DNA of 64,000 nucleotides from Actinomycetota bacterium (GCA_038249195.1 JBBRWM010000001.1:395489-459488); one strand, 5' to 3'. Shown: positions 44,232 to 59,270, counted from the stretch's first letter. Made by a program: numbers and translations. The notes: generated by a model not told the origin, from the letters alone.

Positions 44232-45061
44232 GCATGGGCGCGCGCGTGAACGCGGACGGCCGCGCTGCCGCCGACCATGTCTGCCGCCGCCCCGCCCTCG
44301 CGCCGAAGCCGGCCCACGTCAACGGCGTCCGGATCGACCCCCTGGGAGAGCGACGCTTCCTGCAGGTGGTGGAGGATTTTCTCGGCTGCGGCCGCCGGAC
44401 CGGGAACGCGCACGTGATCCACTTCTGCGCCGCGCATCCCACGGTGGAGGCGCGACACGACCCCGGGTATCGGGATCTGTTGAACGAGGGAGATCTCAAC
44501 GTCGCCGACGGGATGCCCGTGGCCTGGGCGGCCCGCCGCCGCGGGCATCCGGCGCAGCGACTTGCGGGCACCGACGGGATGATGGCGCTCTCGGACTGGG
44601 GCAGCGCGCGGGGCCTGCGCCACTACCTCTACGGCGCCACCGAGGACACCCTCGCCGCCATGCGAACGAACCTCGAGCGTCGTCATCCTGACATCCAGGT
44701 CGTGGGCGCCGAGTCGCCGCCCTTCCGCGCGATCGACGACGGCGAGCTCGACGAGACGGTGGCGAGGATCCGCGCCGCCGCGGCCGACACCGTATGGATC
44801 GGGCTGGGAGCCCCCAAGCAAGACGTCATGGCCGCCCGGCTCCGCGAGCGCGAGGCCGCTCCCCTGTTGTTCGCGGTGGGCGCGGCGTTCGATTTCATCG
44901 CCGGGACCAAGAGCCGCGCGCCGGCGTGGATGCAGCGCAGCGGTCTCGAGTGGGCACATCGGCTCGGTTCGGAACCGGGCAGGCTGTGGAGGCGCTACCT
45001 CCTCGGCAACGCGCGGTTCGTGGCCGGGGTAGCGCAGGACCGGGTCCGAGGCCGCACCTAG
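44232..45061 (+). CDS. WecB/TagA/CpsF-family glycosyltransferase
   Basis: VNGVRIDPLGERRFLQVVEDF...VIHFCAAHP...ADGMPVAWAARRRG...WIGLGAPKQD match the UDP-ManNAc(A)-type transferase family. It lies in-frame inside a longer composite ORF, and its start follows the bcp stop. Confidence 0.8.
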
Positions 45062-45066
45062 AAGCT

Positions 45067-45936
45067 TCAGCGTCCGAGGAACCGCTCCGCCAGATGCCGC
45101 GGCATCTGCGCGAGCTTCCCCCAAGGCTGGTAGCGGGCGTTGTCCCGCAGGAACTCGGCTCGGGCCTCCCCGAACCCGGGCCAAGCCCGGATCGTCTCGT
45201 CGAAGCGGGCGGCCGCCCACGCATAGAGCTCGAGGTCGAGCGCGTTCTGTGCTCGGATGTGATCCAGGTCGTCCATGGAGAGCGAGCCGCGGCGGTCGCG
45301 CCCCGGATCGACGTTGACCGATACGTATCGGAGCTTGCGCCAATCGAAGGCTCGCCGCATCAGGACGAGCGACTCATCGAAGCGCTCGGTCAGGCCGACC
45401 ACGGCGAAGGCTCGCTCGAGGTTGGCCTTGGCGTGCACGAGCATCGTCGACGTGCAGCCGCCGAACGACGTGCTGACGTCGCCGGCGAACGCACGGGTCT
45501 GACTGTTGTCCATCTCGAGGGAGATCCCGCTTCGCACGTACGAGGCGAGGTCCGGGAACGCCTTCGCCTCCTCGTGCAGGAGATGGCGCTCGTGTCGTTT
45601 CGCGTGATGGAACTGGGACGCGATGAGGTCGAGCGGCTCACGCAGCAACGTCACGTAGGTGGCCGGCCTCGGCACCACGTCGTGGAGGCCGAACGTCATG
45701 TGACCCATGATCAGGCGGGGGCGGGTCCGTTCCGCCTCGGGGAGGGCGGCGAAGTAGTCGATCGCGCCGTCGCGCCGCAGGCGTCCGGGCACCACCGTCG
45801 GCGCCCTGAGCTCCATGACCTCGGCGGGAGGGAACTCCTTGCGGAGCGCGCGCCGCATCGTGGCTCCGGCCGTCTTCCCGACATGAAGGAAGATGACGGT
45901 GGCGTCCTCCGCGATAGGGTCGTGACTCAGTGACAC
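45067..45936 (-). CDS. Sulfotransferase (Sulfotransfer_2/Golgi-type fold, HxxKTGGT PAPS-binding motif)
   Basis: 5'-PSB-like motif VIFLHVGKTAGATM near the N-terminus. Overall length and pattern fit family-2 carbohydrate sulfotransferases. Confidence 0.6.
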   Translation of the reverse strand: MSLSHDPIAEDATVIFLHVGKTAGATMRRALRKEFPPAEVMELRAPTVVPGRLRRDGAIDYFAALPEAERTRPRLIMGHMTFGLHDVVPRPATYVTLLREPLDLIASQFHHAKRHERHLLHEEAKAFPDLASYVRSGISLEMDNSQTRAFAGDVSTSFGGCTSTMLVHAKANLERAFAVVGLTERFDESLVLMRRAFDWRKLRYVSVNVDPGRDRRGSLSMDDLDHIRAQNALDLELYAWAAARFDETIRAWPGFGEARAEFLRDNARYQPWGKLAQMPRHLAERFLGR

Positions 45937-47048
45937 GGTGTGGGCACCGCGGACGCGTCGTGGAATTGGCCACCGCGCTCGGGGATGAACCGCCAGTCGT
46001 AGCCATCGCGGTGCAGTTGCAGCGTAAGGACCCCGAAGCTGTTGTCGTTGCTCGCCTCGCTGTTCGCGGCGCGCCTCGAGCTCGGGAACCTCGCATGGCT
46101 GGCGCCCCCGGTTCCCACGATGAACTCACGGATGCCGTTGGGCCTGCGCACGGCGTTCGGCGTCTGGCGAGCGAAGCGCTCGTACACGTGCTCGTGTGCA
46201 TTCAGGACGACGTCGACGCCCCGTCGGTAGAGCAGCCGCCAGATGGCATCGTAGGTCGGATCGCTTCCGTGCACGCCCGAGGAGAAACGTGGCCAATGCC
46301 AGAAGGCGAGCGTGCACCCGAAGGTTCGCTGGGGGTGGGTCGCAAGATCCGCCGCGAGCCAGGCGAACTGGCGCGTTCCAGGGGTGCAGCCTTTGGCCTT
46401 CACACAGTTGCCGTTGAGCGCGATGAAGTGCCAGCAGGCGCTGCCGTGCCCCGGCCGGCAACCCTGCGGCACGTTGAAACTGTAGAAGGCGCCCGAGCCG
46501 GGGGTCGGTCCCCGATCCGGTCCCTTCAATGCGGCGAAGTAGGCGAAGAACCCGTTGGCGCTCCCGGGTGGGTCCTGGCAACCCGTCGCCCCGGGGGCGC
46601 TCGCCGTGGTGCGGTAGTCCTTGTCCCCCACCACGGGCTTCGTCACCGCGAACACCCGGCCCCACGTGGGCCGGTACGAGCGACGGAACGCGGACAGGCC
46701 CCCGCACGTGTACTGCGTGTCACCCAGCGCCAGCACCGTTCGGTATCTGGCATGGGTTCCACGCAGCAGGAGGTTCGAAACCGCTTTCATGTGACAACCC
46801 GTGGCGGAACCGCGTCCCCTGTTGAAGGCGGGGTTCGACGGATCGCAAGCGATGTTTCCCGCCGCCGCGATCACGGGATCGTGCTTGGACACGTGCACGC
46901 GGGGGCGCTGGTGGAGGAGGCTCGAACCGCTCGCCCTTCCCGCAGGCGCCGCGCTCGTGATGAGACCGACCATGGCCGCGAACGAAAGCAGGAGCGCGGC
47001 GCCGCGCCCGGTGCGCCGTCGCGCGGTTGATGCGCGAGTCGGCGACAC
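45927..47048 (-). CDS. Secreted purple-acid-phosphatase-like metallophosphoesterase
   Basis: N-terminal signal (possibly Tat-like RRRTGRGAALLL). PAP motifs LALGDTQY (GDxxY), VVLNAHEHVYER (GHxHxYER). Confidence 0.75.
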   Translation of the reverse strand: MSPTRASTARRRTGRGAALLLSFAAMVGLITSAAPAGRASGSSLLHQRPRVHVSKHDPVIAAAGNIACDPSNPAFNRGRGSATGCHMKAVSNLLLRGTHARYRTVLALGDTQYTCGGLSAFRRSYRPTWGRVFAVTKPVVGDKDYRTTASAPGATGCQDPPGSANGFFAYFAALKGPDRGPTPGSGAFYSFNVPQGCRPGHGSACWHFIALNGNCVKAKGCTPGTRQFAWLAADLATHPQRTFGCTLAFWHWPRFSSGVHGSDPTYDAIWRLLYRRGVDVVLNAHEHVYERFARQTPNAVRRPNGIREFIVGTGGASHARFPSSRRAANSEASNDNSFGVLTLQLHRDGYDWRFIPERGGQFHDASAVPTPCH

Positions 47049-47391
47049 GCCGACGGCGATCGGGCAACGTCGGCGAGCGCGCCGCCCACCTGCCGCACGA
47101 GGGTCGGGGCGCGGGCGCGCCCGTTCGAGGTGGTTGCCGGGGGTCGAGATCCACCGAGACTAGGGAGCGCCTTCTCGATGTGTCAAGGAGCGGCCGCGTC
47201 CCGCGACCTTCGGCCCCGTGAAGGACCGATCGGCCCGTTGTCGGGCCGATCGACCGCGGCTAGCGTGGTCCCCTCGGGGCGACCCGGCGACGTCATGCGC
47301 CATAAGAGAAGGGTCTCGGAGGGCACGTGGAACCGACGGCGATCACAACCGAACATCCGAGGCGCCGCGCGCCCCTCGGGGAGGGCGCTTG

Positions 47392-48360
47392 ATGGCGACG
47401 CCGGCGACCGGGGCGTCCGCCGACACGAGCACGCTCCCGAACCTGGTGATCGCGGGCGTGGGCAAGGCCGGGACGACCTCGCTCTTCTGGTACCTCGCGC
47501 AGCACCCGGACGTGTGCGCGTCCGACGTGAAGGAGATCCAGTACTTCACGCCGCTCAGCGAGGGCGACGGGAACCTCCAGCCGCTTGCCGCCTACGCCCA
47601 GCATTTCCGCGGCTGGTCGGGCGAGCGCTACCGGCTGGAGGCGAGCCCGCAGTACTTCCACGGCGGGCAGCCCATCGTGGACGCGATGCGTTCCACCCTG
47701 CGGGACCCGCGCGTCATCGTGATGCTTCGCGATCCCGTCGAGCGGCTCTGGTCGCAGTTCCGCTTCATACGCAGCCGCCTCGCCGGCCTTCCCGATGCCA
47801 TGACGTTCGAGGACTACGTGGAGGCCTGCCGCGGCGTGCGCGAGCGGCGCGAACCCTTCTCCCAGGACAATCGTCTGTACTGGACCATCCAGGGCGGCTT
47901 CTACGACGAGTATCTTCAACCCTGGATCGAGGCGTTCGGCGAGGATCTGCGCATCGTGTTCTTCGAGGACCTGGCCGCTGGCCCCGAACCTACGACGGTC
48001 GAGACGTACGCCTGGCTCGGCCTGGACGCCCCCGCGGAAGGCGCCGTCTCCTACTCGGTGCAGAACCGCACGATCCGCTACCGGAGCAAGCTGATCCAGC
48101 GGGCGGCGCTCGCCGCGAACCGAGAGGGTCGCCTGGGCGACAAGCGACGCTTGAAGGAGCCGCTTCGCAAGCTCTATTACGCCGTGAACCGCCGGCCCGA
48201 GGCCGAGCGCATGGCAACGCACACACGGCGAGAGCTCGCCGCGCTGTTCGCGCCCGGCAACGCGGCCCTGGCTCGACGGTTGCGTTCCCTCGGCTACGAG
48301 CGGCCGCCTGCCTGGGTCGCGGACGCGCCGGCAGCCGAGGCCTCGTCCGACCCGGACTGA
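47392..48360 (+). CDS. Sulfotransferase (cytosolic/Stf-type fold)
   Basis: 5'-PSB motif LVIAGVGKAGTTSL and a 3'-PB region (VIVMLRDPVERLWS). The longer ORF upstream (from 47218) adds only Arg-rich low-complexity sequence. Confidence 0.7.
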   Translation: MATPATGASADTSTLPNLVIAGVGKAGTTSLFWYLAQHPDVCASDVKEIQYFTPLSEGDGNLQPLAAYAQHFRGWSGERYRLEASPQYFHGGQPIVDAMRSTLRDPRVIVMLRDPVERLWSQFRFIRSRLAGLPDAMTFEDYVEACRGVRERREPFSQDNRLYWTIQGGFYDEYLQPWIEAFGEDLRIVFFEDLAAGPEPTTVETYAWLGLDAPAEGAVSYSVQNRTIRYRSKLIQRAALAANREGRLGDKRRLKEPLRKLYYAVNRRPEAERMATHTRRELAALFAPGNAALARRLRSLGYERPPAWVADAPAAEASSDPD

Positions 48361-48367
48361 CCTGAGG

Positions 48368-49336
48368 ATGGCCGCCGCCCCCCTCCCCCGCATCCTGTGC
48401 AGCTCGGTGGTCCGATCCGTCCACCAGGGCGAGAGCCACGGCGGCGTCTACCTCGTCGATCTCGGATCGGGCACGTCCGAACAGGTGCTCGACTGGAAGG
48501 ACACGAACATCGACTGGGAGGGAAGAGGGGGCGACCGCGGGCTGCGGGGGATCGCCTTTCACGAAGGCTCGATCTACCTCGCGGCGAGCGACGAGATCTT
48601 CGTGTTCGACCGCTCGTTCAACCGAACCGGGTCGTTCCGCAACCCGTATCTGAGCATGTGCCACGAGATCTTCGTGCAGGACCACCGGCTGTACCTATCG
48701 TCCACCGGATTTGACGCGGTCCTCGAGTACGACCTGTCGCAGGGGGCGTTCACGCACGGATGGAGCCTGCGCTACGCGAAAGCGTGGAAGCTCCGCCGCA
48801 CCTTGAAGCTCAAGATCCCGCCCGCGCTCAGAACGTTCGATCCCAACGAGCCCGGCGGGCCCGCCCGCGGCGACACGAGTCACGTGAACCACGTGTGGAT
48901 CCATGAAGGAGCGTTGCTCGCGAGCGGCACGAAACTCTCGGGCTTGTGGCAGGTGAACGGCCCCGGACTGAAGCGCTACGCGACGGTCCCGTTCGGCACC
49001 CACAACGCACGACCGTTCCGCGACGGCGTGCTCTTCAACCACACGAAGACCGACCGCATCGCGTACGGCTCGCTGGGAGGCGATGTCCTGGCCTCGGTGT
49101 CGATGCCCACGTACGACAAGGATCGTCTCGAGCACGCGGATCTTCCGGAGGACCTCGCCCGGGCGACGTTCGGCCGCGGCCTCACGGTCCTCGCGGACGG
49201 CCGCGTCGTGGGAGGGTCCTCCCCCGCCACGATCAGCGTGTATGACCTGGATGCGGGCGTCCGCGAGACCTCGGTGAACATCACGATGGACGTGCGAAAC
49301 GCCGTGCACGGCCTCGAGGTCTGGCCGTTCGACTGA
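48368..49336 (+). CDS. Hypothetical protein (possible beta-propeller/lactonase-like fold)
   Basis: High-GC3 322-aa ORF with no recognisable motif, embedded in the glycan locus. Confidence 0.45.
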   Translation: MAAAPLPRILCSSVVRSVHQGESHGGVYLVDLGSGTSEQVLDWKDTNIDWEGRGGDRGLRGIAFHEGSIYLAASDEIFVFDRSFNRTGSFRNPYLSMCHEIFVQDHRLYLSSTGFDAVLEYDLSQGAFTHGWSLRYAKAWKLRRTLKLKIPPALRTFDPNEPGGPARGDTSHVNHVWIHEGALLASGTKLSGLWQVNGPGLKRYATVPFGTHNARPFRDGVLFNHTKTDRIAYGSLGGDVLASVSMPTYDKDRLEHADLPEDLARATFGRGLTVLADGRVVGGSSPATISVYDLDAGVRETSVNITMDVRNAVHGLEVWPFD

Positions 49337-49384
49337 GGAGCGTGGTCTTGGTGATCACCACCCGGCGGATCCGTGTTCGTCCGC

Positions 49385-50311
49385 CTACCAGTCGTCGTCG
49401 GAGTAGAACGCCGCGGCGACGTCTGCCGTCGCCGTGCGGATCCGCGCGACCTCCTCGGACGACAGGCGCGCCTTCCACGCGGTGATGGACCTGGCGCTGT
49501 CGCGCCGATGCGAGGCCGCGTCGGTGGTCTCCTCGGGGTTGTCCACGCCGCTGTGCTCCTCGATCGTGCGTTGCACCGAGGGCGTCCAACTGAAGCCGAA
49601 GCGCTCGTACAGGGCGCGGAAACCGCGGACCGGCTCGCGGGAGAGATCCTCGTGGCGCAGGAAGGTCCAGGTCGGTCGCTCGTCGCGGAACCGCCTGATC
49701 TGCATGTGGATGAGGTTCCACAACAGGATCGCCTGATCGATCAGGGGCTGCTCCACGTCGGCGAAGCGCCGGATCTCCTCCTCGTAGGCGCCGAGCTGAT
49801 CGCGCATCATCAGCGGCTGACGCAGGAAATGGTCGAAGGGATGGTCCCAACCCTGCCGCACGATGCTTCGCACGAAGGCTGCGGGGTGGCGGATGAGCAC
49901 GACCACGTCCATCTCGAACGTGTCGGCGAGCCAACCCGCGGAGAACACGGCGATGGGATCCTTGAGCAGCGGCAGCGCGTGTCGTCGACGATGCTCCTCG
50001 GTGGTCCACCAGTCGCGAGCGAATCGAGCGGTGTCCTTCGGCGAACGCAACGAGCGCAGTTCGGCGACCGGCCGGTAGCGGAACGCGAGCGTATCGGCCA
50101 CCGGTCCGCGGAATGCGCCCTCGTTCTCCTCGCACACGAAGGGGAACCAGTAGCGGAAGGGGGCGTTGCAGATGCCGGGTCGCGCCCGCAGGCTGAACGG
50201 CTCCCACAGGTACGCCAGCCGCGGGCGGGGCGTTGCCGCGAGCATCTCACCGACCCAGCCCGTGCCCGATCGGTGCGAACCCGTCACGAGCAAGGGCCGA
50301 GGAGCGTCCAC
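49385..50311 (-). CDS. Sulfotransferase (Stf0-like)
   Basis: N-terminal PAPS-binding loop LLVTGSHRSGTGWV and a sulfotransferase-like C-terminal region. Confidence 0.6.
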   Translation of the reverse strand: MDAPRPLLVTGSHRSGTGWVGEMLAATPRPRLAYLWEPFSLRARPGICNAPFRYWFPFVCEENEGAFRGPVADTLAFRYRPVAELRSLRSPKDTARFARDWWTTEEHRRRHALPLLKDPIAVFSAGWLADTFEMDVVVLIRHPAAFVRSIVRQGWDHPFDHFLRQPLMMRDQLGAYEEEIRRFADVEQPLIDQAILLWNLIHMQIRRFRDERPTWTFLRHEDLSREPVRGFRALYERFGFSWTPSVQRTIEEHSGVDNPEETTDAASHRRDSARSITAWKARLSSEEVARIRTATADVAAAFYSDDDW

Positions 50312-50462
50312 CGCCTCAGGCTACCCGCCCAGGCCCGATACCCCGCCACGCTGCGGACGTCCGTGCGTTCGATATCGGGCAAAGGGCGTACGGCGCGTGG
50401 CCGTTCGACCTGTGGTGAGATCCGGGCGGGCGATGGTACTGTGGGTCGGCCGAGGTACAGCT

Positions 50463-50491
50463 TTCGGCGCACAGGTATCGGCTGCGCCGAA
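50463..50491. promoter_or_regulatory. Inverted repeat TTCGGCGCA-n11-TGCGCCGAA upstream of secreted beta-propeller gene
   Basis: Perfect 9-nt arms about 30-55 nt upstream of the 50520 ATG. Confidence 0.25.
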
Positions 50492-50519
50492 CGCGGCGCC
50501 CACAAGGAGGTTACGTTCG

Positions 50520-51851
50520 ATGCACATCCCCCGACGTTTGGTTCGCGGCCTGGTGGTCGTAGCCATGATCGCAAGTGGGCTCGCGCTCCTGCCAGCTGCA
50601 CCCGCGCTCGCCTTGTCGAACAACCCCGATACCACCTGGATGACCAACGGAAAAGTGTGGGGGACCGCCCAGTACGGCAACGTCCTGTTCATCGGCGGCA
50701 CGTTCACGCAGGTGCGCAGCGCACCCGTGGGCACCTCCGGTGCCACGAAGATCGCCGTCAACAACCTGGCGGCCATCGACATGACGACGGGCCAAGGCAT
50801 CGCGTCCTTCCACCCCGACGTGGCCGGCTCAGGACTGCAGACGGCGCAGATCCACGCGCTCGCCGTGGCGGGCAACACGCTCTACGTGGGCGGGCAGTTC
50901 AGCTCGATCGACGGCTCGCCGCACTACAACCTCGGCGCGATCGACCTGGACACATCGCCGCTGACGGGGACGGTCGATGACTCGTTCACCGCGGAGGTGG
51001 GGGTGCCCGGCGCCTCGAACGAGAACAAGACCTTCGTGTACGAGATCCTCCCCGGCAACGACGGTCTCTACATCGGCGGGGTCTTCACCAAGGTGGACGC
51101 CCTCGGCCGGAGCAAGGCCGCGAAGGTGACGTTCGGCGGTGCCATCGTAAAGACCTGGAAGGTCCTGAGCGTCAACGGCGCCATCCGGGACATGGCGTTC
51201 TCCACCGACGGCCAGACGATCTTCATCGCCGGCGCGTTCAGCAAGGCGAACAAGGTCGCGCACCAGAGCATCGCCAGGGTCCTCACGTCGACCGGGAAGG
51301 ACGACACCTGGAACGTCTCGGGTGTGATCGTGGACAACGGTCCCACGCACTACGGCATGAGCTGCTGGAGCCTCGCCATCACGCAGACGCGGGTGTTCGC
51401 CGGCTGTGGACGCGGCGCCAACTACGCGGCGGCGTTCCGCCTGGACAACGGGGACACGGGGAACAGGACCTGGTCCTTCGGCACCGTCGGCAACGTGCAG
51501 GCCATCGCCCTCACGTCCGATCGGCAGAGCCTCGTCATCGGCGGGCACTTCGGGACGTTCCTCACGCAGTCGGTCTGCAGCAACAAGTACCTGAAGAACC
51601 TCGGGATCCTGAACAACATCTACGGCACGAGCACCCCGAGCCTGGACTGCAGCTTCCTACCACAGTTCAAGGGGCCGAACCCCTTCGGCGGCGTCTGGGA
51701 GATCCAGGTCACGTCCACCGCGATCTGGGCCGGCGGCGAGTTCCACGACGTCAACTGCGACCCCTCGCGTTCGGACACCGGCGGCGGGCCCGGCAAGTGG
51801 ACCTGCACGAACGGTCGCGGCCAGCAAAGCATCGCCCGGTTCACCCTCTAG
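50520..51851 (+). CDS. Secreted beta-propeller repeat protein
   Basis: AAGGAGG RBS 8 nt upstream of the ATG. Signal peptide (LLPAAPALA); about 7-8 repeats with conserved G-G-x-F / LY(V/I)GG pattern (delta-60/SBBP-like blades). Confidence 0.6.
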   Translation: MHIPRRLVRGLVVVAMIASGLALLPAAPALALSNNPDTTWMTNGKVWGTAQYGNVLFIGGTFTQVRSAPVGTSGATKIAVNNLAAIDMTTGQGIASFHPDVAGSGLQTAQIHALAVAGNTLYVGGQFSSIDGSPHYNLGAIDLDTSPLTGTVDDSFTAEVGVPGASNENKTFVYEILPGNDGLYIGGVFTKVDALGRSKAAKVTFGGAIVKTWKVLSVNGAIRDMAFSTDGQTIFIAGAFSKANKVAHQSIARVLTSTGKDDTWNVSGVIVDNGPTHYGMSCWSLAITQTRVFAGCGRGANYAAAFRLDNGDTGNRTWSFGTVGNVQAIALTSDRQSLVIGGHFGTFLTQSVCSNKYLKNLGILNNIYGTSTPSLDCSFLPQFKGPNPFGGVWEIQVTSTAIWAGGEFHDVNCDPSRSDTGGGPGKWTCTNGRGQQSIARFTL

Positions 51852-51853
51852 GG

Positions 51854-52714: not shown

Positions 52715-52800
52715 GGCGCTGCCCGGCGTCGACGGCGGTAACGCCGGGGCCCGTATCATCGAACCGGCCGGGGAACGGACCGAAGAACAGGAGCTGCTGA

Positions 52801-53919
52801 GTGCGGATCGGGGTCGACGCCAGCTTCATCGACCCGGGTCGCGTGGGCGGCGCCGAACACATGCTCACCAACCTCGTGCAGGGGCTGGGCGAGACGGCCG
52901 AGGGCGACGATGAAGTGACGGTCTTCACCGAGCACCCGTGGGCGGCGCCCGCGCCGGTTCACTTCCGCCATCCGCGGGGTCGCGGCGATCGGTTCCGCCG
53001 GATCACACGAACCGTGTGGCCGGAGCTCAGCCGATTCGATGCCTTCCTGTTCGCGAACTACTTCACACCGCCTTTCCCGCGCACGTCCGGCCGGCCGCGG
53101 TTCGTTACCGTCATCCACGATCTGCAGTACCGGCACTTCCCGGAACATTTCAGCCGGCGCAAACGCGCCTGGCTGAGGGGGGCGCACGAGGCCACGCTGC
53201 GCCTCGCGGACGAGACCGTCGCCATCTCCCACGACGTGCGTCGCGACGTGCTCGCGAGCTACGGGGCGCGTTGGGCGGACCGCGTGCGGACGATCCACAA
53301 CCCGGTTTCCTGGACGCGCTTCGACGGCGACGCGCCGGCGCCCATCGAGGAACCGTACGTGCTCGCCGTGGCCGCCCAGTATCCCCACAAGAACCTCGAG
53401 ACCCTCGTCCGGGCCTTCGGGGCGTTGCGGCGGCAGGGCCGCCACCTCGACGCGCGCCTGGTGCTGGCCGGCCAGCTCGGTCACAACCTGCGTGGGGTGG
53501 CGTGGACCCGGCCGCTCGACGACGTGATCGCGTCCGAGGATCTCGGCTCGGCCATCCACGTGACGGGCTACCTCGGCGACGAGCAGCTCGGGGCCGCGTA
53601 TCGCCGCGCACGCATGTTCGCGTTCCCGTCGCGGTTCGAGGGCTTCGCGTTGCCGGTGGTGGAAGCCTTGGGCTTCGGCCTTCCCGTGCTCACGACGCGC
53701 AGCACCGCGATCCCCGAGGTGACGATGGGCCTGGCCACCTACCTCGACGACCCGCTCGACGTCGAGGCCATGGCCGAACGGATCGGATCCATGCTGGACG
53801 ATCCGGCGGCGTTCGAACCCTCGGCCTCCGACGTCGAGCGCGTCCGCGCGGCGTACGCCCCCGCGACGATCGCGACGCGATACCGGGCCGTCCTGCGGGG
53901 CGACGAGGTTGCGGCGTGA
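52801..53919 (+). CDS. Glycosyltransferase family 4 (GT-B)
   Basis: GT4 C-terminal signature FAFPSRFEGFALPVVEALGFGLPVLTT (EX7E). Confidence 0.8.
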   Translation: MRIGVDASFIDPGRVGGAEHMLTNLVQGLGETAEGDDEVTVFTEHPWAAPAPVHFRHPRGRGDRFRRITRTVWPELSRFDAFLFANYFTPPFPRTSGRPRFVTVIHDLQYRHFPEHFSRRKRAWLRGAHEATLRLADETVAISHDVRRDVLASYGARWADRVRTIHNPVSWTRFDGDAPAPIEEPYVLAVAAQYPHKNLETLVRAFGALRRQGRHLDARLVLAGQLGHNLRGVAWTRPLDDVIASEDLGSAIHVTGYLGDEQLGAAYRRARMFAFPSRFEGFALPVVEALGFGLPVLTTRSTAIPEVTMGLATYLDDPLDVEAMAERIGSMLDDPAAFEPSASDVERVRAAYAPATIATRYRAVLRGDEVAA

Positions 53920-54857
53920 TCCAGCCCATCTTCGTCCTCTCGCTGCCTCGATCGGGCTCGACGCTCGTGCAGCGCGTCCTGGGCGCGCACCCCTTGATCG
54001 GCACCGCGGCCGAGCCGTGGCTCCTGCTCCCCCACGCGTACGCGCTGCGCGAGCGGGGGATGGCCGCCGAGTACACGCAGCCGGTAGCCGCGCGCGCGAT
54101 CCGCGAGTTCGTTGCCGGCCTACCCGGAGGCGAGGACGACTATTGGTCGGCCTTGCGCGCCTTCACGCTGAACCTCTACGAGGGGGCGGCCGGGCCCGGC
54201 GCCACGCACTTCTTGGACAAGACACCGCGCTACCACTTCATCACGCCCGAGCTGTTCCGGATGTTCCCCGACGCGAAGGTCATCTTCCTGTGGCGGAACC
54301 CGCTGGCCGTGGTGGCGTCGATCGTGGATACCTGGTGCAAGGGCGCCTGGAACGTGGACCGGTGGCAGGGGGACCTTCTCGGGATCGAGCGGCTGGTGGC
54401 GGCGCGCGAGGAGCACGCCGACCGTTCGCTCGCGGTGAACTTCGAGTCGTTGGTCGGTGAGCCGGGTACGGCCTGGCCCAAGGTCTTCGACTACCTCGAG
54501 CTGCGGTTCGATCCGGAGCTGCTCAACGCCTTCTCCGGCGTGCACCTCGCGGGGTCGATGGGCGACCCCACCGGGGTGCAGCGCTATCACGAGCTCAGCA
54601 CCGAACCATTGGAGAAGTGGAAGGCGACGCTGGGCCACCCGTGGCGGAAGCGGTGGTGTCGCGCCTACCTCGATCGGATCGGACCCGAGCGCCTCGCCGC
54701 CATGGGGTATGACGTCGATGAGCTTCGGGGGCAGCTGGACGACCTGCCGTCCTCACCACGCAGGGCGGTGTCCGACGCGGTGCACGGCACCTACTGGACG
54801 TGGGCACAGCGACGCAAGCGCGCCGCGTTCAAACGTATGGCGCCGCGGGTTCACTGA
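53916..54857 (+). CDS. Sulfotransferase (Stf0-like)
   Basis: GTG start overlapping the GT4 stop (GTGA). PAPS-binding loop IFVLSLPRSGSTLVQ and 3'-PB-like VIFLWRNPLAVVAS. It lies in-frame inside a longer composite ORF. Confidence 0.7.
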   Translation: MIQPIFVLSLPRSGSTLVQRVLGAHPLIGTAAEPWLLLPHAYALRERGMAAEYTQPVAARAIREFVAGLPGGEDDYWSALRAFTLNLYEGAAGPGATHFLDKTPRYHFITPELFRMFPDAKVIFLWRNPLAVVASIVDTWCKGAWNVDRWQGDLLGIERLVAAREEHADRSLAVNFESLVGEPGTAWPKVFDYLELRFDPELLNAFSGVHLAGSMGDPTGVQRYHELSTEPLEKWKATLGHPWRKRWCRAYLDRIGPERLAAMGYDVDELRGQLDDLPSSPRRAVSDAVHGTYWTWAQRRKRAAFKRMAPRVH

Positions 54858-56109
54858 TGCCGAGCGCACGCACGGCGTCGGCCGCCTCCGCGCGTCGCGG
54901 GAGGCCGGGGTCACCCAGCGACATGGCGATGGCGTAGAGCCCGAACACGGTGGCCGATCGCGACGCGCCCGGGAGCACCGGGTTGAACAGCATGGCCACG
55001 AACACGGCGTTGAGGCACACCAGGATCACGCGAAGGAGATCCGCTCGATCCTGCTGCCCCACCCGGATGAAGCGTCGATATCGCCGCACGATCACGATCT
55101 CGGTGAGCACGATCCAGCCCAGGAGGAGGCCCAGTCCCAGCAGGCCGCCTTCCGCAGCGAAGAGCACGAAGTCGTTGTGGTAGGGCAGCGCCTTCTGGTC
55201 GCGGGCGCGGACCGCCACCGAGCTCCCCGAGAACACCGATCCGACCAGCGGCGACTGTTGGAACTTCTCGATCCCGGAGGTCCACAGGTCGATGCGGCCC
55301 GCGTTCGCGTCGGCCTTGCCGACTGCCGAGAAGTAGTCGCTCGTCAGCTTCACGCCCTCCTGGAAGTTGGCGATGGCGAACACGGCGAAGAGCAGCACGA
55401 GCCCCGTCACCACGAGCGAGCGCAGCCCCGTGGCGCGACGTCCCGTGAGGAAGAGGGTGAGGAACACCGACAGGATGATGAGGAGCGAGGTCGCCGACGG
55501 ATACGTCACGAAGATGATCCCCGTGAGGACCATGATCACCAAGAACCGCCGATACCTGCGCGTCACGAACGCGGCCGCAAGGGCCAGGGCGACGAACGCG
55601 AAGCTCGCGTTGCGGTACTGCTTGTACTGGAGCAGCCCGGGAAGGATCTGCAGATTGACGGCTACGTTCATCGCCACGTACACGAGGCCGATCCACGCGA
55701 GCCAGGTCATCGTGCGTCCGACCTCGCGATCGGTCGGCTCCCGCAGCGTAAAGAGGTAGAGCAGCCCGAGCAGCATCGGGAGGAAGGCCGGGCGCACGGT
55801 GTCCTGTGTCCCGAGGAACGCCACGCCGATGAGGGAGCCGCCCATGCCCAGCACGTAGAGGATCCCCAGCACCACGTCGCTCGAAGCGGGCGATCGGACC
55901 AGCATCGACGGCTCCCGCATCCGGATCGCGACCATCGTGCCGATGGGGATCAACAGGACGAGGTAGCGCATCGCGCCGCCTCGGTCGAGCACGTTGAACG
56001 CGTCCACGACCGTGAGCGACATGAGGAACAGGAACGAACGGGCCAGTCGGTAGGAGTCGGTGTCCCCGGTCACCGAGACGGGCATCGCGCGGGTCTGCGG
56101 GACGCTCAC
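54829..56109 (-). CDS. O-antigen ligase/polymerase (Wzy-like) family membrane protein
   Basis: About 10-12 TM helices with a large periplasmic loop near the C-terminus, typical of the O-antigen polymerase/ligase family. Confidence 0.65.
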   Translation of the reverse strand: MSVPQTRAMPVSVTGDTDSYRLARSFLFLMSLTVVDAFNVLDRGGAMRYLVLLIPIGTMVAIRMREPSMLVRSPASSDVVLGILYVLGMGGSLIGVAFLGTQDTVRPAFLPMLLGLLYLFTLREPTDREVGRTMTWLAWIGLVYVAMNVAVNLQILPGLLQYKQYRNASFAFVALALAAAFVTRRYRRFLVIMVLTGIIFVTYPSATSLLIILSVFLTLFLTGRRATGLRSLVVTGLVLLFAVFAIANFQEGVKLTSDYFSAVGKADANAGRIDLWTSGIEKFQQSPLVGSVFSGSSVAVRARDQKALPYHNDFVLFAAEGGLLGLGLLLGWIVLTEIVIVRRYRRFIRVGQQDRADLLRVILVCLNAVFVAMLFNPVLPGASRSATVFGLYAIAMSLGDPGLPRRAEAADAVRALGISEPAAPYV

Positions 56110-56255
56110 GCGATCCGTCCCGATCGTTGGGGGCTCGGCCCCGCCGGCCCGTCGTACGCTCGCCCCGCGACCGCCGAGGGACGGGACCCTTGCGGCGTCG
56201 GCGTTGGGTAGCCTGTTCGCGGTCGGGCGCGGCGGGCCCGCGGAAAGGTCTGGGG

Positions 56256-57233
56256 ATGGCGGGCAGGGAGGTCGCGGCGCGGCGTTGGATCGTCGCGCTC
56301 GCGTGCATGGCGCTGCTGAGCGCCGCGTGCAGCCGTTCGGAGACGACGCTCGAGGGGAACTCCACGCGGCACTTCGTCGTGGTGGCGACCGGGGACATCG
56401 CCTGCGGACAGGCCCCCACGCCCGACGATCCGGAGCAGAAGTGCCGCTACGACCTGGTCGGTGACCTCGTGCGCAGCCTCGCCCCCGATCGATTCCTCCC
56501 GCTCGGCAATCTCCAGTATTCGCTCTCGGGGCCCCCCGACTACGCCGCCTACTACGACCGGTACTTCGGGGACCTCATGTCCGTGACGAGTCCGACGCCC
56601 GGTGATAGCGACTGGGTCCCGAGCCCCCAGGCCTACCTGGAGGCGTTCGGCAAGGCGGCCGGGGCCCCGGGCGGGTACTACTCCTACGACATCGGTTCCT
56701 GGCACATCATCTCGTTGAACTCCCAAGACTGCTTGGACGAGAGCGGGTGCGGGCCCGGCACCAAGCAGTACGACTGGCTGCTGGGCGACCTCGCCTCGCA
56801 CCCCAACTCCCTGTATCCGTGCACACTCGCCTACTTCCACGACCCTCGGTACCTGTGGGTGACGTGGTGGGCCCTGGACGGCCTTCCCAAGGGAGCGAAC
56901 ACGAAGGTGACCCCGTTCTGGGGGCTGCTCTACGGCGCCGGCGCGGACGTGGTCCTGGGAGCGAGCGCGCACAACTACGAGCGGTGGGCGCCCCAGAACC
57001 TGGAGGGCCAGATCGATCCGGCCAAGGGCATCACCGAGTTCGTCGTGGGCACCGGTGGGCGCAGGATGATGCCGTTCGGCCCCCAGCCGCGGCCCGTGAA
57101 CCTCATGGCCGCCCAAGACACGTCCTACGGGGCGCTCCGACTCGCGCTCGACCCCTCGGGTCTGAGCTACGCCTGGCGTTCGGCACCCGAGCAATCCGCG
57201 TTCCATGATGAAGGTCGCGTGACCTGCCATTGA
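56256..57233 (+). CDS. Purple-acid-phosphatase-like metallophosphoesterase lipoprotein
   Basis: Lipobox LLSAACS. PAP motifs (VVATGDIACG, LPLGNLQY, LGASAHNYERW). Paralog of the gene at 45927-47048. Confidence 0.75.
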   Translation: MAGREVAARRWIVALACMALLSAACSRSETTLEGNSTRHFVVVATGDIACGQAPTPDDPEQKCRYDLVGDLVRSLAPDRFLPLGNLQYSLSGPPDYAAYYDRYFGDLMSVTSPTPGDSDWVPSPQAYLEAFGKAAGAPGGYYSYDIGSWHIISLNSQDCLDESGCGPGTKQYDWLLGDLASHPNSLYPCTLAYFHDPRYLWVTWWALDGLPKGANTKVTPFWGLLYGAGADVVLGASAHNYERWAPQNLEGQIDPAKGITEFVVGTGGRRMMPFGPQPRPVNLMAAQDTSYGALRLALDPSGLSYAWRSAPEQSAFHDEGRVTCH

Positions 57234-57272
57234 CCCGATGACCCACGCCCGCGCCGGCACCGGACGACGAGC

Positions 57273-58970
57273 CTACTGGCGCGTGCCGGGAACACCGCTC
57301 GCGCGATCGCCACTGGACTTCTGCCCGTTGCTGCTCACGCCGACGGAGGAGGCGGGCAGGGCCATGTCGGAGCCTACGGACGGGCGCGACCCGCGGTCTG
57401 GTCCGTAGTACTCGTCGTAGCTCGCGTACCCGAGATAGCTCCGCTGCGCCGCGCTCACGTTGTTGTAGACCCCACCGATGATGGAGCCGCCCGCCGTGCG
57501 CAGCTGGCGAACGGCGTCCTCCAACGCGGTGCGGTTGGAGATGCTGGGGTCGTGAACGAAGAGCACCGCGTCGCTCTCCTCGGCCAGCACCGAGGCGTCG
57601 GCCACGGGCAGCACCGGGGGGGCGTCACACACCACGATGTCGGCGACGCGTCGCAACCCTTCGAACACCGCGTCCGCGTTCGGACCCGCCAGCAAGGAGA
57701 CGGGGTCCGGCGGGATCGAACCTGCGCCCACGATCCACAGGTTCTCCGTGTCCGTAGCCTGGATCACATCGACGAGATCGCGGGCACCCTCGAGGGCCTC
57801 GCGGAGGCCCGCCCGCTCCGTGACGCCGATGAATCGCGAGGCGCGCGGTCGACGCAGGTCGGCGTCCACCAATACGGTGCGCAGGCCCGTCTCGGCGAGG
57901 ATCACCGCGAGGTTCGCCGCCGTTGCGCTCTTGCCCTCCGTGGGCATCGCGCTGGTGACCACGAGGACCCGCAGCGGCTGCTGCGAGCGGAGGAACCGCA
58001 CGTTGGTGGCGAGCGTGCGGTATGCCTCTGAGGCGGGCGCACTGGGTTCCTCGCGCGTGATGAGCTCGGCTCGCTCCGCATGATCCCAGCCTTCGACGCG
58101 CGGGATCACGGCCATCACCGGGGCGCCGAGGTGCTGGGCGAGCTCGTCGCGACCGCCCACCTTGTTGTCGCGCAAGCCACGCACGATGGCCAGCGCGGCA
58201 CCGAGGATCGCGCCCACCACCAGGCCAAGCAGGACGGCGAGGGGCAGGTTCGGCCCGACCGGACCGCCGGGGGTGACGGCCGCCTGGATCACGCTCCCCC
58301 CTTGGCTCACGCTGCCCTGAGACTCCAGGTCGTCGATGCGCGCCTGCGAGTTGTCGATGCTCGTACTGAGGGTCTGGGCCTGCTGACGAAGCGCGGCGCC
58401 CTGCGCCGGGTTCTTGGTGATGCTGATCTGCCTCTCCAGATCTAAGTAGGCGTCCTGCTTGGTGCGCAGCGAGGTCTGGAGCGGCGTGATGGCCTGGGCG
58501 ACCTGATCGTGCACGATGCTTTGCCGCTGGGCGAGGTAGGCGTTCGCGAACGCGTTCGCGACGTCGGCTGCCACCTTCGGGTCGCTGGAGGTGAAACCGA
58601 TCGTCATCACGGTCGTATCGCGAACGACCGTCACCGAGACGCTCTTCACGAGCGCCTGCGACGATTGCGAGATCCCCAGGCTCTGCCGGACCTTGTCGGC
58701 GATGGTGATCGACTTCGCGACCTCCGCCTCGGTGAGCATGTCCGGCTCGAGCGTGCCCGCCGTGCTCCCGGGAACGGGGGTCACGGCGACGTTGATGAGC
58801 GGCGAGACCGCTACCTTGGCTTGCGCGTAGTAGACCTTGGGCTTGAGCAACACGTAGCCGGCGCTCAAGACCGCGATGATCAAGGCCGCCACGAGGACGG
58901 TGAGTCGCCGCGCCCTGATCATGTTCCAGTAGTCGCTGAGGTCGAGGATCCTGGTGGTTGGTTCGGACAC
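57273..58970 (-). CDS. Polysaccharide co-polymerase/tyrosine autokinase (Wzc-like)
   Basis: N-terminal Wzz-like periplasmic domain between two TM helices. C-terminal CapB/BY-kinase domain (Walker A TSAMPTEGKSATAANLA, Walker A', Walker B VVCDAPP) and a C-terminal Tyr cluster YLGYASYDEYYG. GTG start chosen. Confidence 0.85.
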   Translation of the reverse strand: MSEPTTRILDLSDYWNMIRARRLTVLVAALIIAVLSAGYVLLKPKVYYAQAKVAVSPLINVAVTPVPGSTAGTLEPDMLTEAEVAKSITIADKVRQSLGISQSSQALVKSVSVTVVRDTTVMTIGFTSSDPKVAADVANAFANAYLAQRQSIVHDQVAQAITPLQTSLRTKQDAYLDLERQISITKNPAQGAALRQQAQTLSTSIDNSQARIDDLESQGSVSQGGSVIQAAVTPGGPVGPNLPLAVLLGLVVGAILGAALAIVRGLRDNKVGGRDELAQHLGAPVMAVIPRVEGWDHAERAELITREEPSAPASEAYRTLATNVRFLRSQQPLRVLVVTSAMPTEGKSATAANLAVILAETGLRTVLVDADLRRPRASRFIGVTERAGLREALEGARDLVDVIQATDTENLWIVGAGSIPPDPVSLLAGPNADAVFEGLRRVADIVVCDAPPVLPVADASVLAEESDAVLFVHDPSISNRTALEDAVRQLRTAGGSIIGGVYNNVSAAQRSYLGYASYDEYYGPDRGSRPSVGSDMALPASSVGVSSNGQKSSGDRASGVPGTRQ

Positions 58971-59270
58971 TCCTGCTCCTGACGTGCGGCATCGCGCCCG
59001 GCGGGCGGCGGCCAGGCCGCGCAAGCGCCCATGATATCGGACACGAGCGGCGCTCCGCTCCCCGCTTTGGGCTAACTTCGTGGAGGTTTGTGCCTGTCGC
59101 CCGTCCTAGGTCTTCCGCCGCTCGTGCATCCCCGAAGGGCGAGAGTCCGACCGGGCTGTTGACCCTCCTACGGCGTCTATCGTACGTTTTCGGGCCGAGA
59201 GCACGCCCGCCACCCCGGAGCCGGATCCCGTCCCGTGGCCGAGACACGAACGCGCTGGAGGTTGTTCCCC

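What the first reader, a model, noticed from the sequence alone, without database searches (positions are those of the whole stretch)
44232..59024. Glycan-assembly locus with four sulfotransferases: candidate sulfated surface polysaccharide/glycoconjugate pathway
Within about 15 kb there are four predicted PAPS-dependent sulfotransferases of at least two structural families. One is Golgi-type HxxKTGGT (45067-45936). Three are Stf-type with PxxGTT or RSGS(T) loops (47392-48360, 49385-50311, 53916-54857). They are interleaved with a WecB/TagA-family transferase, a GT2, a GT4, a Wzy-like polymerase/ligase, a Wzc-type tyrosine autokinase/co-polymerase, a secreted beta-propeller, a hypothetical protein and two secreted purple-acid-phosphatase-like enzymes. 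A WbaP-type priming transferase lies about 10 kb away next to the Tad locus. A Wzy/Wzc-dependent pathway decorated by multiple sulfotransferases would make a multiply sulfated extracellular polysaccharide. That is rare in bacteria and, to my knowledge, not characterised in high-GC Gram-positive lineages, where the known sulfated products are glycolipids such as the Stf0 product. No flippase (Wzx) or PAPS-synthesis genes (cysDNC) appear in the window.
Basis: partly seen in the sequence, partly recalled or inferred. Interest (0 to 1): 0.8.

Follow-up and report, generated by a model that had tools for sequence, protein, structure and literature searches.

The report
Four-sulfotransferase polysaccharide locus, uncultured Actinomycetota
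A gene cluster from an uncultured soil actinobacterium combines polysaccharide-assembly genes with four unrelated sulfate-adding enzymes and an uncharacterised propeller enzyme, so it probably makes a heavily sulfated surface sugar polymer, a product rarely documented in bacteria.

Summary
Window 44.2-59.0 kb carries four PAPS-type sulfotransferase genes, all above Pfam thresholds. Their PAPS-binding loops are conserved and all four are under purifying selection. They are interleaved with GT26, GT2 and GT4 glycosyltransferases, a Wzy_C membrane protein, a Wzc tyrosine autokinase, two secreted purple-acid-phosphatase-like paralogs and a secreted propeller. A WbaP-type primer lies 10 kb away. 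No Wzx and no PAPS-synthesis genes are in the window.

The cluster is conserved in about 45 species-level MAGs of uncultured Actinomycetota. The nearest is MFD04944.bin.1.51 at 94% identity; distant ones are labelled Gaiellales or Thermoleophilia. These loci often carry 3-6 sulfotransferases, and most have a Wzx inside the cluster.

The best reading is a Wzx/Wzy-dependent, multiply sulfated polysaccharide. This is inferred; there is no chemistry. The claim of no actinobacterial precedent is dated: the Actinoplanes wps-1 cluster (2026) is a genetically studied but chemically unverified analogue, and cyanobacterial synechan is the proven model.

It is a cytoplasmic six-bladed propeller from a large family with no Pfam model. 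It always sits beside sulfotransferases and is sometimes fused to one. Its fold resembles PAPS-independent arylsulfate sulfotransferases, but sequence-level support is not significant.

The parts
32632..34212 (-). WbaP/EPS-type polyprenyl-phosphate hexose-1-phosphate transferase (candidate priming enzyme), 10 kb from the cluster and next to the Tad locus
   Evidence: Pfam Bac_transf 3e-65 plus CoA_binding_3. NCBIfam TIGR03025 at 425 bits, cut-off 296. A homolog lies within 10 kb of ST-A in L016, L017 and L022.
44234..45061 (+). GT26 (WecG/TagA/CpsF-family) glycosyltransferase
   Evidence: PF03808 1.3e-53. TIGR00696 at 130 bits, cut-off 69. The ATG is at 44234.
45067..45936 (-). ST-A: Gal-3-O/heparan sulfate 2-O/6-O-type (Sulfotransfer_2 clan) PAPS sulfotransferase, cytoplasmic
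   Evidence: PF06990 5.2e-16. AF2 model pLDDT 83; Foldseek top hits are heparan sulfate 2-O-ST 4ndz (E 1.8e-8, TM 0.58) and heparan sulfate 6-O-ST. H18, K21, T22, G24, R99 and S107 are invariant. dN/dS is about 0.19.
45927..47048 (-). MPE1: secreted purple-acid-phosphatase-like metallophosphoesterase. Its stop overlaps the ST-A start by 10 nt.
   Evidence: Signal peptide. PDB purple acid phosphatase 1.1e-5 over the WHxP...HxHxYER half. No Pfam hit. A relative in L005 carries fn3 plus a weak Metallophos hit.
47392..48360 (+). ST-B: Sulfotransfer_1/3, heparan sulfate 3-OST/NDST-like PAPS sulfotransferase
   Evidence: Pfam. PDB 3rnl 6.5e-15, heparan sulfate 3-OST 9e-9, NDST 5e-6. GKAGTTS and LRDP..S motifs are conserved.
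48368..49336 (+). Hyp322: cytoplasmic six-bladed beta-propeller of an unnamed family, in an operon with ST-B. Candidate ASST-like enzyme.
49385..50311 (-). ST-C: Sulfotransfer_3 PAPS sulfotransferase
   Evidence: PF13469 3.4e-9, full model length. SHRSGTG and IRHP..S are conserved in 29 orthologs. No PDB sequence relative.
50520..51851 (+). Secreted beta-propeller (DUF5122/Rax2-like, weak)
   Evidence: Signal peptide. Weak Rax2 hit and DUF5122 in orthologs.
51854..52714 (+). GT2 glycosyltransferase
   Evidence: PF00535 1.2e-21.
52801..53919 (+). GT4 glycosyltransferase. Its stop overlaps the ST-D start by 4 nt.
   Evidence: PF00534 6.8e-25 and PF13439.
53916..54857 (+). ST-D: Sulfotransfer_3 PAPS sulfotransferase (CurM-ST/TPST/NoeE-like)
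   Evidence: PF13469 6.6e-31. NoeE N-terminal half 1.9e-18. PDB CurM/OLS ST 3e-10 and TPST 2e-6.
54829..56109 (-). Wzy_C-domain polytopic membrane protein (candidate repeat-unit polymerase)
   Evidence: PF04932 1.2e-10. At least 8 hydrophobic segments.
56256..57233 (+). MPE2: lipoprotein-like paralog of MPE1
   Evidence: 33% identical to MPE1, E 2e-42. LSAAC lipobox-like N-terminus.
57273..59024 (-). Wzc-type polysaccharide co-polymerase fused to a BY tyrosine autokinase
   Evidence: Wzz, GNVR and P-loop domains. TIGR01007 at 155 bits, cut-off 108. Walker A, A' and B motifs and a C-terminal Tyr cluster SYLGYASYDEYY are visible in the translation.
59235..59945 (+). Histidine phosphatase (His_Phos_1) that stays next to the cluster in distant relatives; role unknown
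   Evidence: PF00300 1.4e-46. Homologs of 40-50% identity lie inside Gaiellales-type loci.

Best explanation
The locus encodes a Wzx/Wzy-dependent pathway for a multiply sulfated extracellular or cell-surface heteropolysaccharide in an uncultured soil or groundwater lineage of Actinomycetota.

Inferred sequence of steps:
1. A WbaP-type phosphotransferase primes undecaprenyl phosphate.
2. GT26, GT2 and GT4 build a short repeat unit on the cytoplasmic face.
3. Four soluble cytoplasmic PAPS-dependent sulfotransferases of four different families add sulfate at different positions of the lipid-linked unit. GT4 and ST-D are translationally coupled.
4. The conserved Arg/His-rich propeller Hyp322, co-transcribed with ST-B, acts on the same anionic intermediate.
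5. A Wzx flips the unit. It is encoded elsewhere in this genome but lies inside the cluster in most relatives.
6. The Wzy_C protein polymerises the units under the control of the Wzc autokinase.
7. Secreted PAP-like phosphoesterases and a secreted propeller process the product outside the cell.

Shown: gene identities, motifs, topology, synteny and purifying selection. Inferred: the acceptor, the order of steps, the PAPS supply and the product.
For: - Four sulfotransferases score above Pfam thresholds and have conserved PAPS loops.
- The sulfotransferases, glycosyltransferases and Hyp322 all lack signal peptides and transmembrane segments.
- The ST-A model matches heparan sulfate 2-O/6-O-sulfotransferases.
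- ST-B matches heparan sulfate 3-OST/NDST.
- ST-D matches the Nod-factor sulfotransferase NoeE.
- Wzy_C, Wzc and WbaP memberships are met.
- dN/dS is 0.12-0.28 for all cluster genes.
- The same core is found in about 45 species-level genomes: ST-A, Hyp322, ST-C, ST-D, GT2, Wzy and WecG, usually with Wzx. Of the related loci, 21 have 3 sulfotransferase-like genes, 17 have 4, 3 have 5 and 2 have 6.
- There is no GC anomaly.
- Experimentally studied analogues exist: synechan xss and Actinoplanes wps-1.
Against: - No Wzx and no cysD/N/C, sat or cysQ genes were found in the 64-kb window. A motif scan also found none within 10 kb of any related locus.
- No nucleotide-sugar genes lie in the cluster.
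- The Wzy_C domain is shared with ligases and O-oligosaccharyltransferases, so polymerisation is not proven.
- The acceptor of each sulfotransferase is unknown. ST-D's closest solved relatives act on a polyketide intermediate and on tyrosine.
- No organism with this cluster is cultured, so there is no chemical evidence of sulfate.
Confidence: 0.65

Rival explanations
1. The sulfated glycan is not a free or capsular polymer. It is a conjugate: a wall-anchored secondary cell-wall glycopolymer built on a TagA-like linkage unit, or an oligosaccharide transferred by the Wzy_C protein, acting as a WaaL/PglL-like ligase, onto a protein such as the neighbouring Flp/Tad pilin or a surface protein.
For: - The GT26 enzyme belongs to the TagA/WecG family used for wall-polymer linkage units.
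- Wzy_C is the domain shared by O-antigen ligases and PglL-type O-oligosaccharyltransferases.
- A Tad pilus locus is adjacent in the window and in its nearest relatives, where TadA is 89-99% identical in L004, L007, L010, L012-15 and L041.
- No Wzx is present in the window.
Against: - A Wzc co-polymerase/BY-kinase is typical of polymerised EPS/CPS.
- The Tad adjacency disappears in more distant cluster-bearing genomes. In L005, for example, the cluster is next to his genes.
- No LCP-family ligase was seen in the window.
Confidence: 0.17
2. Some or all of the sulfotransferases act on non-glycan substrates, such as peptide tyrosines or a small metabolite, and only happen to sit in a glycan locus.
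For: ST-D's nearest solved relatives are the CurM/OLS polyketide sulfotransferases and the tyrosylprotein sulfotransferases. ST-C has no solved relative.
Against: - There is no PKS, NRPS, RiPP precursor or peptide exporter in the window.
- The ST-D start overlaps the GT4 stop, and ST-A and ST-B resemble glycosaminoglycan sulfotransferases.
- All four travel together with the glycosyltransferases, Wzy and Wzx across about 45 genomes.
Confidence: 0.08
3. The cluster makes an ordinary non-sulfated polysaccharide, because the host lacks PAPS or the sulfotransferase-like proteins have other roles.
For: PAPS-synthesis genes are absent from the window and from all flanks examined.
Against: PAPS-binding residues are invariant over homologs as distant as 31-47% identity, and the genes are under purifying selection. 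Sulfate-activation genes are usually encoded elsewhere in a genome (general knowledge).
Confidence: 0.05

Closest known systems
Synechocystis sp. PCC 6803 xss cluster (synechan, a sulfated EPS; PMC8205485)
   Same: A Wzx/Wzy-type cluster with a PCP and several glycosyltransferases. Sulfotransferases of distinct subfamilies are embedded in it, and sulfation is presumed to occur on the cytoplasmic repeat unit.
   Different: - xss has two sulfotransferases and eight glycosyltransferases, its Wzx lies in the cluster, it has XssS/R/Q regulators, and sulfate in the product is chemically proven.
- This locus has four sulfotransferases and three glycosyltransferases, no Wzx in the window and no XssQ-type regulator. 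It also has a conserved propeller and PAP-like enzymes.
- Hyp322 has no homolog on any PLSDB plasmid, and pSYSM is not among the listed ST-A or ST-D plasmid hits.
Actinoplanes missouriensis wps-1 cluster (PMC13390465, 2026)
   Same: It is also from Actinomycetota. It is a Wzx/Wzy/Wzz cluster carrying a Gal/GlcNAc-type and a heparan-sulfate-type sulfotransferase, the same two broad types as ST-A and ST-B. A sulfated EPS is proposed but not chemically verified.
   Different: - wps-1 has two sulfotransferases, plus a methyltransferase, a GH26 enzyme and a kinase-like gene, and a CysNC-like gene adjacent.
- Its host is cultured, and gene knockouts give a sporangium phenotype.
Sulfated capsular polysaccharide loci of marine Vibrio sp. 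KMM 8419 and Cobetia marina (PMC11641403, PMC11766843)
   Same: Bacterial polysaccharide loci that contain several sulfotransferases, with the sulfated structure solved by NMR.
   Different: They are Gram-negative, use ABC-transporter (Kps) export and carry cysDNC inside the locus. The authors call the co-presence of PAPS genes a hallmark, and that hallmark is absent here.
PAPS-independent arylsulfate sulfotransferases (E. coli ASST 3ELQ; Streptomyces Cpz4 9KF6), compared with Hyp322 only
   Same: - His/Arg-rich centre.
- H-E and H-V-N motifs appear in the same order as ASST H252 and H356/N358.
- Cpz4 works downstream of a PAPS-dependent sulfotransferase and sulfates a sugar hydroxyl.
   Different: - No Pfam ASST match, even at E<=10.
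- The profile-profile score is not significant: P 0.03, and 2 of 30 shuffles score as high.
- ASST R374 has no conserved counterpart.
- The equivalent of the nucleophile His is ambiguous: H212 is invariant, whereas the residue hhalign aligns, H225, is not.

Membership tests
PAPS-dependent sulfotransferase superfamily (four ORFs) | Score above the curated threshold of a sulfotransferase Pfam family | tested here: met
   PF06990 at 59 bits against 27. PF13469 at 37.4, 37.7 and 108.7 bits against 27. PF00685 at 28.3 and 27.4 bits against 22.
PAPS-dependent sulfotransferase superfamily (four ORFs) | 5'-phosphosulfate-binding loop and 3'-phosphate-binding R...S motif | tested here: met
   Both motifs are present in all four and conserved at 95% or more across 23-82 homologs of 31-47% minimum identity.
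PAPS-dependent sulfotransferase superfamily (four ORFs) | Sulfotransferase fold | tested here: met
   Tested for ST-A only. AF2 pLDDT 83; top PDB matches are heparan sulfate 2-O and 6-O sulfotransferases with PAP bound. ST-B and ST-D have significant sequence matches to solved sulfotransferases. ST-C was not tested structurally.
PAPS-dependent sulfotransferase superfamily (four ORFs) | PAPS-dependent sulfuryl transfer to a defined acceptor | not testable with these tools
   Needs enzyme assays.
   No such family appears among the Pfam hits at E<=0.01. ST-D has only weak hits to 2zq5 and 2z6v, at E 0.004-0.02.
Wzx/Wzy-dependent polysaccharide pathway | Polyprenyl-phosphate hexose-1-phosphate priming transferase | tested here: met
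   TIGR03025 at 425 bits against a cut-off of 296, at 32632-34212. It lies 10 kb outside the cluster.
Wzx/Wzy-dependent polysaccharide pathway | Wzy polymerase | tested here: inconclusive
   A Wzy_C domain and at least 8 transmembrane segments are present. The domain does not separate a polymerase from a ligase or O-oligosaccharyltransferase.
Wzx/Wzy-dependent polysaccharide pathway | Wzx flippase (Polysacc_synt/MOP) | tested here: not met
   None is in the 64-kb window, judged by Pfam scans of all sizeable ORFs and by tblastn with the L004 Wzx. A Wzx lies inside the cluster in most related loci.
Wzx/Wzy-dependent polysaccharide pathway | PCP-2/BY-kinase (Wzc) | tested here: met
   Wzz, GNVR and P-loop domains. 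TIGR01007 at 155 bits against 108. Walker A, A' and B motifs and a C-terminal Tyr cluster.
Characterised sulfated-polysaccharide clusters (xss, Vibrio CPS) | Ester sulfate demonstrated in the product | not testable with these tools
   No cultured host exists.
Characterised sulfated-polysaccharide clusters (xss, Vibrio CPS) | PAPS-synthesis genes in or beside the locus (the hallmark proposed in PMC11641403) | tested here: not met
   A motif scan for APS kinase, Sat, CysN, CysD, CysQ and CysH over the window and 86 loci found nothing credible. Pfam scans of the window agree.
Arylsulfate sulfotransferase (ASST), for Hyp322 | Six-bladed beta-propeller catalytic domain | tested here: met
   [not shown]
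Arylsulfate sulfotransferase (ASST), for Hyp322 | Sequence-family membership (PF05935/PF14269) or significant profile similarity | tested here: not met
   No Pfam hit at E<=10 for four family members. hhalign P 0.029; 2 of 30 block-shuffles score as high.
Arylsulfate sulfotransferase (ASST), for Hyp322 | Catalytic constellation: nucleophile His436 plus His252, His356, Asn358 and Arg374 | tested here: inconclusive
   H99-E100 aligns with H252-E, and H172-V-N174 aligns with H356-V-N358. Invariant H212 ('GTHNA') resembles 'TQHTA', but hhalign places H436 on the non-conserved H225. There is no counterpart of R374. A structural superposition was not available.
Purple acid phosphatase / calcineurin-like metallophosphoesterase, for MPE1 and MPE2 | Family HMM match and the full set of metal-ligand motifs | tested here: inconclusive
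   The PDB PAP match (1.1e-5) covers the WHxP and HxHxYER motifs. There is no Pfam Metallophos hit at E<=0.01. By eye, the GNH[DE] motif reads GNC in MPE1 and NSQ in MPE2.

The most novel reading that the evidence does not exclude
Hyp322 founds a new, large family with about 1100 clusters at 50% identity and no Pfam model. On this reading it is a cytoplasmic, PAPS-independent, ASST-like sulfuryl-transfer enzyme dedicated to polysaccharide biosynthesis. It would use a sulfo-histidine intermediate, probably on invariant H212, to move sulfate from a donor made by the adjacent PAPS-dependent sulfotransferase onto, or between, sugar hydroxyls of the lipid-linked repeat unit. That would be a glycan version of the Cpz8/Cpz4 two-step sulfation in caprazamycin biosynthesis, and it would make this a five-sulfotransferase pathway.
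Probability: 0.2. Interest if true: 0.8.

Novelty: new variant of a known kind. Interest (0 to 1): 0.58.

Why it matters
Sulfated polysaccharides are valued biomaterials, as heparin-like, antiviral and water- or metal-binding polymers. The literature describes them as rare in bacteria outside cyanobacteria.

This locus shows that a whole uncultured soil and groundwater lineage of Actinomycetota keeps Wzy-type clusters with three to six sulfotransferases under selection. Densely sulfated polymers may therefore be a regular part of soil bacterial matrices.

The locus offers a compact set of four orthogonal carbohydrate-type sulfotransferases for glyco-engineering. It also flags an unnamed propeller family, tightly linked and sometimes fused to sulfotransferases, as a candidate new player in glycan sulfation.

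Tried and rejected
- **Recent duplication or horizontal island: rejected.** The four sulfotransferases share no BLAST similarity, GC content is flat, and synteny with the flanking DUF255, response-regulator and Tad genes holds down to about 64% identity.
- **Wzx hidden in the window: rejected.** Pfam scans and tblastn find none.
- **PAPS genes next to related loci: none found.** The motif scan was negative, but it is a weak test.
- **Sequence homology of Hyp322 to ASST: no significant support.** hmmscan at E<=10, a profile search against PDB, and hhalign with a single ASST sequence and with a 120-sequence ASST profile all failed to reach significance. The idea is kept only as a lead.
- **Foldseek of Hyp322 against PDB: uninformative.** It gave only generic WD40 and designer propellers.
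- **The afdb50 library was unavailable**.
- **Link to Synechocystis pSYSM xss genes through PLSDB: none.** Hyp322 has no plasmid homolog, and the best plasmid relatives of ST-A and ST-D are from Priestia and Planktothrix.
- **Priestia plasmid context of an ST-A homolog:** not an EPS cluster.
- **Source genome:** the exact proteins occur only on a 19-kb Logan contig, so the rest of the genome could not be read.

Full report
**Gene map.** The window has about 69% GC, so real genes were picked by third-position GC and then checked with HMMs. The cluster between 44.2 and 59.0 kb reads as follows:

| Coordinates | Strand | Gene |
|---|---|---|
| 44234-45061 | + | GT26 (WecG/TagA) |
| 45067-45936 | - | ST-A |
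| 45927-47048 | - | MPE1 |
| 47392-48360 | + | ST-B |
| 48368-49336 | + | Hyp322 |
| 49385-50311 | - | ST-C |
| 50520-51851 | + | secreted propeller |
| 51854-52714 | + | GT2 |
| 52801-53919 | + | GT4 |
| 53916-54857 | + | ST-D |
| 54829-56109 | - | Wzy_C protein |
| 56256-57233 | + | MPE2 |
| 57273-59024 | - | Wzc |
| 59235-59945 | + | His_Phos_1 |

Upstream lie a DUF255 thioredoxin-like protein, AhpC, three LuxR-type response regulators and a Tad pilus locus. Further upstream are a WbaP-type priming transferase (32632-34212) and a DUF4012 protein. The first 27 kb hold phosphate-regulon and housekeeping genes. There is no Wzx and no sulfate-activation gene anywhere in the window.

**The observation.** All four candidate sulfotransferases exceed Pfam gathering scores.
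- ST-A belongs to the Gal-3-O-sulfotransferase family.
- ST-B matches Sulfotransfer_1/3.
- ST-C and ST-D match Sulfotransfer_3.
- Each has a 5'-phosphosulfate loop and a 3'-phosphate R...S motif. These are the most conserved positions in ortholog sets reaching 31-47% identity.
- None has a signal peptide or membrane segment. The four are mutually undetectable by BLAST, so they are four families and not duplicates.
- dN/dS against four orthologous loci is 0.12-0.28 for every gene of the cluster.

**What the sulfotransferases resemble.**
- An AlphaFold model of ST-A (pLDDT 83) matches heparan sulfate 2-O- and 6-O-sulfotransferases best. Sequence search points the same way, weakly.
- ST-B matches a bacterial sulfotransferase structure and heparan sulfate 3-O- and N-sulfotransferases.
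- ST-D matches the N-terminal half of the Nod-factor sulfotransferase NoeE, and also the CurM/OLS and tyrosylprotein sulfotransferases.
- ST-C has no solved relative.

Two of the four thus look like glycosaminoglycan-type enzymes, which fits a carbohydrate acceptor. The label 'Stf-type' is not supported for Stf0.

**Where the cluster occurs.** The exact proteins occur only on a 19-kb Logan contig.
- ST-A homologs are all from metagenomes or MAGs labelled Actinomycetota, Gaiellales or Thermoleophilia.
- A scan of one genome per species returned 80 loci, all from uncultured organisms. The nearest is MAG MFD04944.bin.1.51 at 94% identity.
- Annotated contexts and a tblastn table show that ST-A, Hyp322, ST-C, ST-D, GT2, Wzy and WecG travel together in about 45 species-level genomes.
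- Most of these genomes have a Polysacc_synt (Wzx) gene inside the cluster. The window's own clade (L002, L007, L008, L039) lacks it within 10 kb.
- Counting genes similar to any of the four sulfotransferases gives 21 loci with three, 17 with four, three with five and two with six.
- Tad adjacency is limited to the nearest subclade.

This is a vertically inherited lineage trait, not an island.

**Mechanism.** The best-supported model is a Wzx/Wzy-dependent pathway.
1. WbaP primes undecaprenyl phosphate.
2. Three glycosyltransferases build a short repeat unit.
3. Four cytoplasmic sulfotransferases decorate it from PAPS. The GT4 stop overlaps the ST-D start, and the MPE1 stop overlaps the ST-A start.
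4. A Wzx encoded elsewhere flips the unit.
5. The Wzy_C protein polymerises it.
6. Wzc regulates the process. Its Walker motifs and C-terminal Tyr cluster are visible, and TIGR01007 is met.

With three glycosyltransferases plus a primer and four sulfotransferases, the polymer could carry about one sulfate per sugar. That figure is inference. The supply of PAPS, the flippase and the product itself are unverified.

Rival readings remain open at lower probability:
- a wall-anchored or protein-linked sulfated glycan;
- non-glycan acceptors for some of the sulfotransferases;
- no sulfation at all.

**The 'hypothetical protein'.** Hyp322 turned out to be the most interesting part.
- It has no Pfam, NCBIfam or PDB sequence match.
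- It nevertheless belongs to a large family: more than 3800 clusters at 90% identity, and 1116 at 50% identity with E<=0.001.
- The model (pLDDT 89) is a six-bladed propeller.
- Across 120 representatives of 30-52% identity, the residues conserved at 95% or more include R16, R57, R60, N174, H212 and R270. Those conserved at 85% or more include H24, R53, H99-E100, H172, N213, D308, R310 and H314.
- Many of them, including R57/R60, H99/E100, H172/N174, H212, R270 and R310/H314, lie at the start of the innermost strand of successive blades. That is a basic central pocket suited to an anionic substrate.
- Family members occur fused to GT41 plus Sulfotransfer_1 (1219 aa), to GT2, to Wzx, and to a cupin hydroxylase.
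- In three loci seeded on Hyp322 itself, the gene is immediately flanked by Sulfotransfer_1/3 genes.

I fetched E. coli ASST and located its catalytic residues from the literature. Hyp322's 'CHEI', 'SHVNHV' and 'GTHNA' motifs resemble ASST's 'THES' (H252), 'AHVNSI' (H356/N358) and 'TQHTA' (H436), in the same order. A profile-profile alignment puts the first two in register.

The evidence against is also clear:
- The alignment score is not significant. P is 0.029, and 2 of 30 block-shuffled controls score as high.
- Pfam ASST models do not match.
- ASST R374 has no counterpart.
- The placement of the nucleophile His is ambiguous.

I therefore report Hyp322 as a conserved, sulfotransferase-linked propeller enzyme of unknown function. 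An ASST-like sulfuryl-relay role is a roughly 20% hypothesis.

**Accessory proteins.**
- MPE1 and MPE2 are secreted or lipoprotein paralogs. They share the C-terminal WHxP and HxHxYER motifs of purple acid phosphatases, and related genes recur in distant clusters. Their role is unknown. Release or trimming of a phosphodiester-linked product is a guess.
- The His_Phos_1 gene stays with the cluster even in loci of 40-50% identity. It could dephosphorylate PAP or Wzc, but this is untested.

**Comparison with the known.**
- The proven model is the Synechocystis xss (synechan) cluster, which has two sulfotransferases, eight glycosyltransferases, Wzx, Wzy and a PCP.
- Within Actinomycetota, a 2026 study of Actinoplanes missouriensis describes the wps-1 Wzx/Wzy cluster. 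It has a Gal/GlcNAc-type and a heparan-sulfate-type sulfotransferase, and both are needed for sporangium formation. Its authors note that sulfation awaits verification.
- Marine Vibrio and Cobetia make structurally solved sulfated capsules from loci that also carry cysDNC.
- No paper in the library links sulfotransferases with Thermoleophilia or Gaiellales.

The present locus is thus a new variant of a known kind. It has more sulfotransferases of more families and a different accessory set. It belongs to an uncultured lineage, and it carries an unnamed propeller family at its core.

**Verdict.**
- Interest is moderate to high (0.58).
- The most novel reading still open is the ASST-like fifth sulfotransferase: probability about 0.2, interest 0.8 if true.

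Noticed in passing
window 48368-49336 (+); loci L089-L091; proteins P0242, P0243, P0248, P0265: The 'hypothetical protein' belongs to a large family with no Pfam model. It is a cytoplasmic six-bladed propeller with an invariant Arg/His centre. It is always next to sulfotransferases and is found fused to Sulfotransfer_1, GT41, GT2, Wzx or a cupin. Its fold resembles the ASST and Cpz4 sulfotransferases.
   Followed up: yes
window 59235-59945 (+); L005 17448-18140: A His_Phos_1 histidine phosphatase stays beside the cluster even in Gaiellales-type loci of 40-50% identity. It could be a PAP 3'-phosphatase or the phosphatase partner of Wzc. A paralog of the MSMEG_4193 type sits at 21917-22597.
   Followed up: partly
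window 39400-41588 (-): Three tandem LuxR/NarL-type response regulators, with no adjacent histidine kinase, lie between the Tad locus and the glycan cluster. The same trio is present in L002 and L004.
   Followed up: partly
L004 6338-7873; L005 14594-15961; window 49336-49385: A Wzx flippase lies inside the cluster in most relatives; in L004 it is between ST-C and Hyp322. In the window's clade it is cleanly absent, and only 48 bp separate those two genes.
   Followed up: yes
window 45927-47048 (-) and 56256-57233 (+): Two secreted or lipoprotein purple-acid-phosphatase-like paralogs (33% identical) sit inside the cluster. The GNH[DE] metal motif looks degenerate (GNC and NSQ). The MPE1 stop overlaps the ST-A start by 10 nt.
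   Followed up: partly
window 9096-21895: A dense block of phosphate genes: CHAD/CYTH protein, polyphosphate kinase, PitA, PhoU-like proteins, an OmpR-type regulator, PstS/C/A and a PAS histidine kinase. GC content is slightly lower here (0.65-0.67 at 12-18 kb).
   Followed up: no
window 41671-43719 (+): A DUF255 thioredoxin-like protein with an (alpha/alpha)6 GlcNAc-2-epimerase-like domain stays directly beside the cluster in many relatives (63-93% identity). This may be backbone synteny or a functional link.
   Followed up: no
L090 1-897: One Hyp322-bearing cluster has a formylglycine-type sulfatase (PF00884) about 9 kb away. This hints at turnover of the sulfated product.
   Followed up: no
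L007 (CAVRAV010000001.1): In the 94%-identical MAG, the best single tblastn segment for Hyp322 covers only 177 codons and for WecG only 169. These are probably indel errors in the long-read assembly rather than pseudogenes.
   Followed up: no
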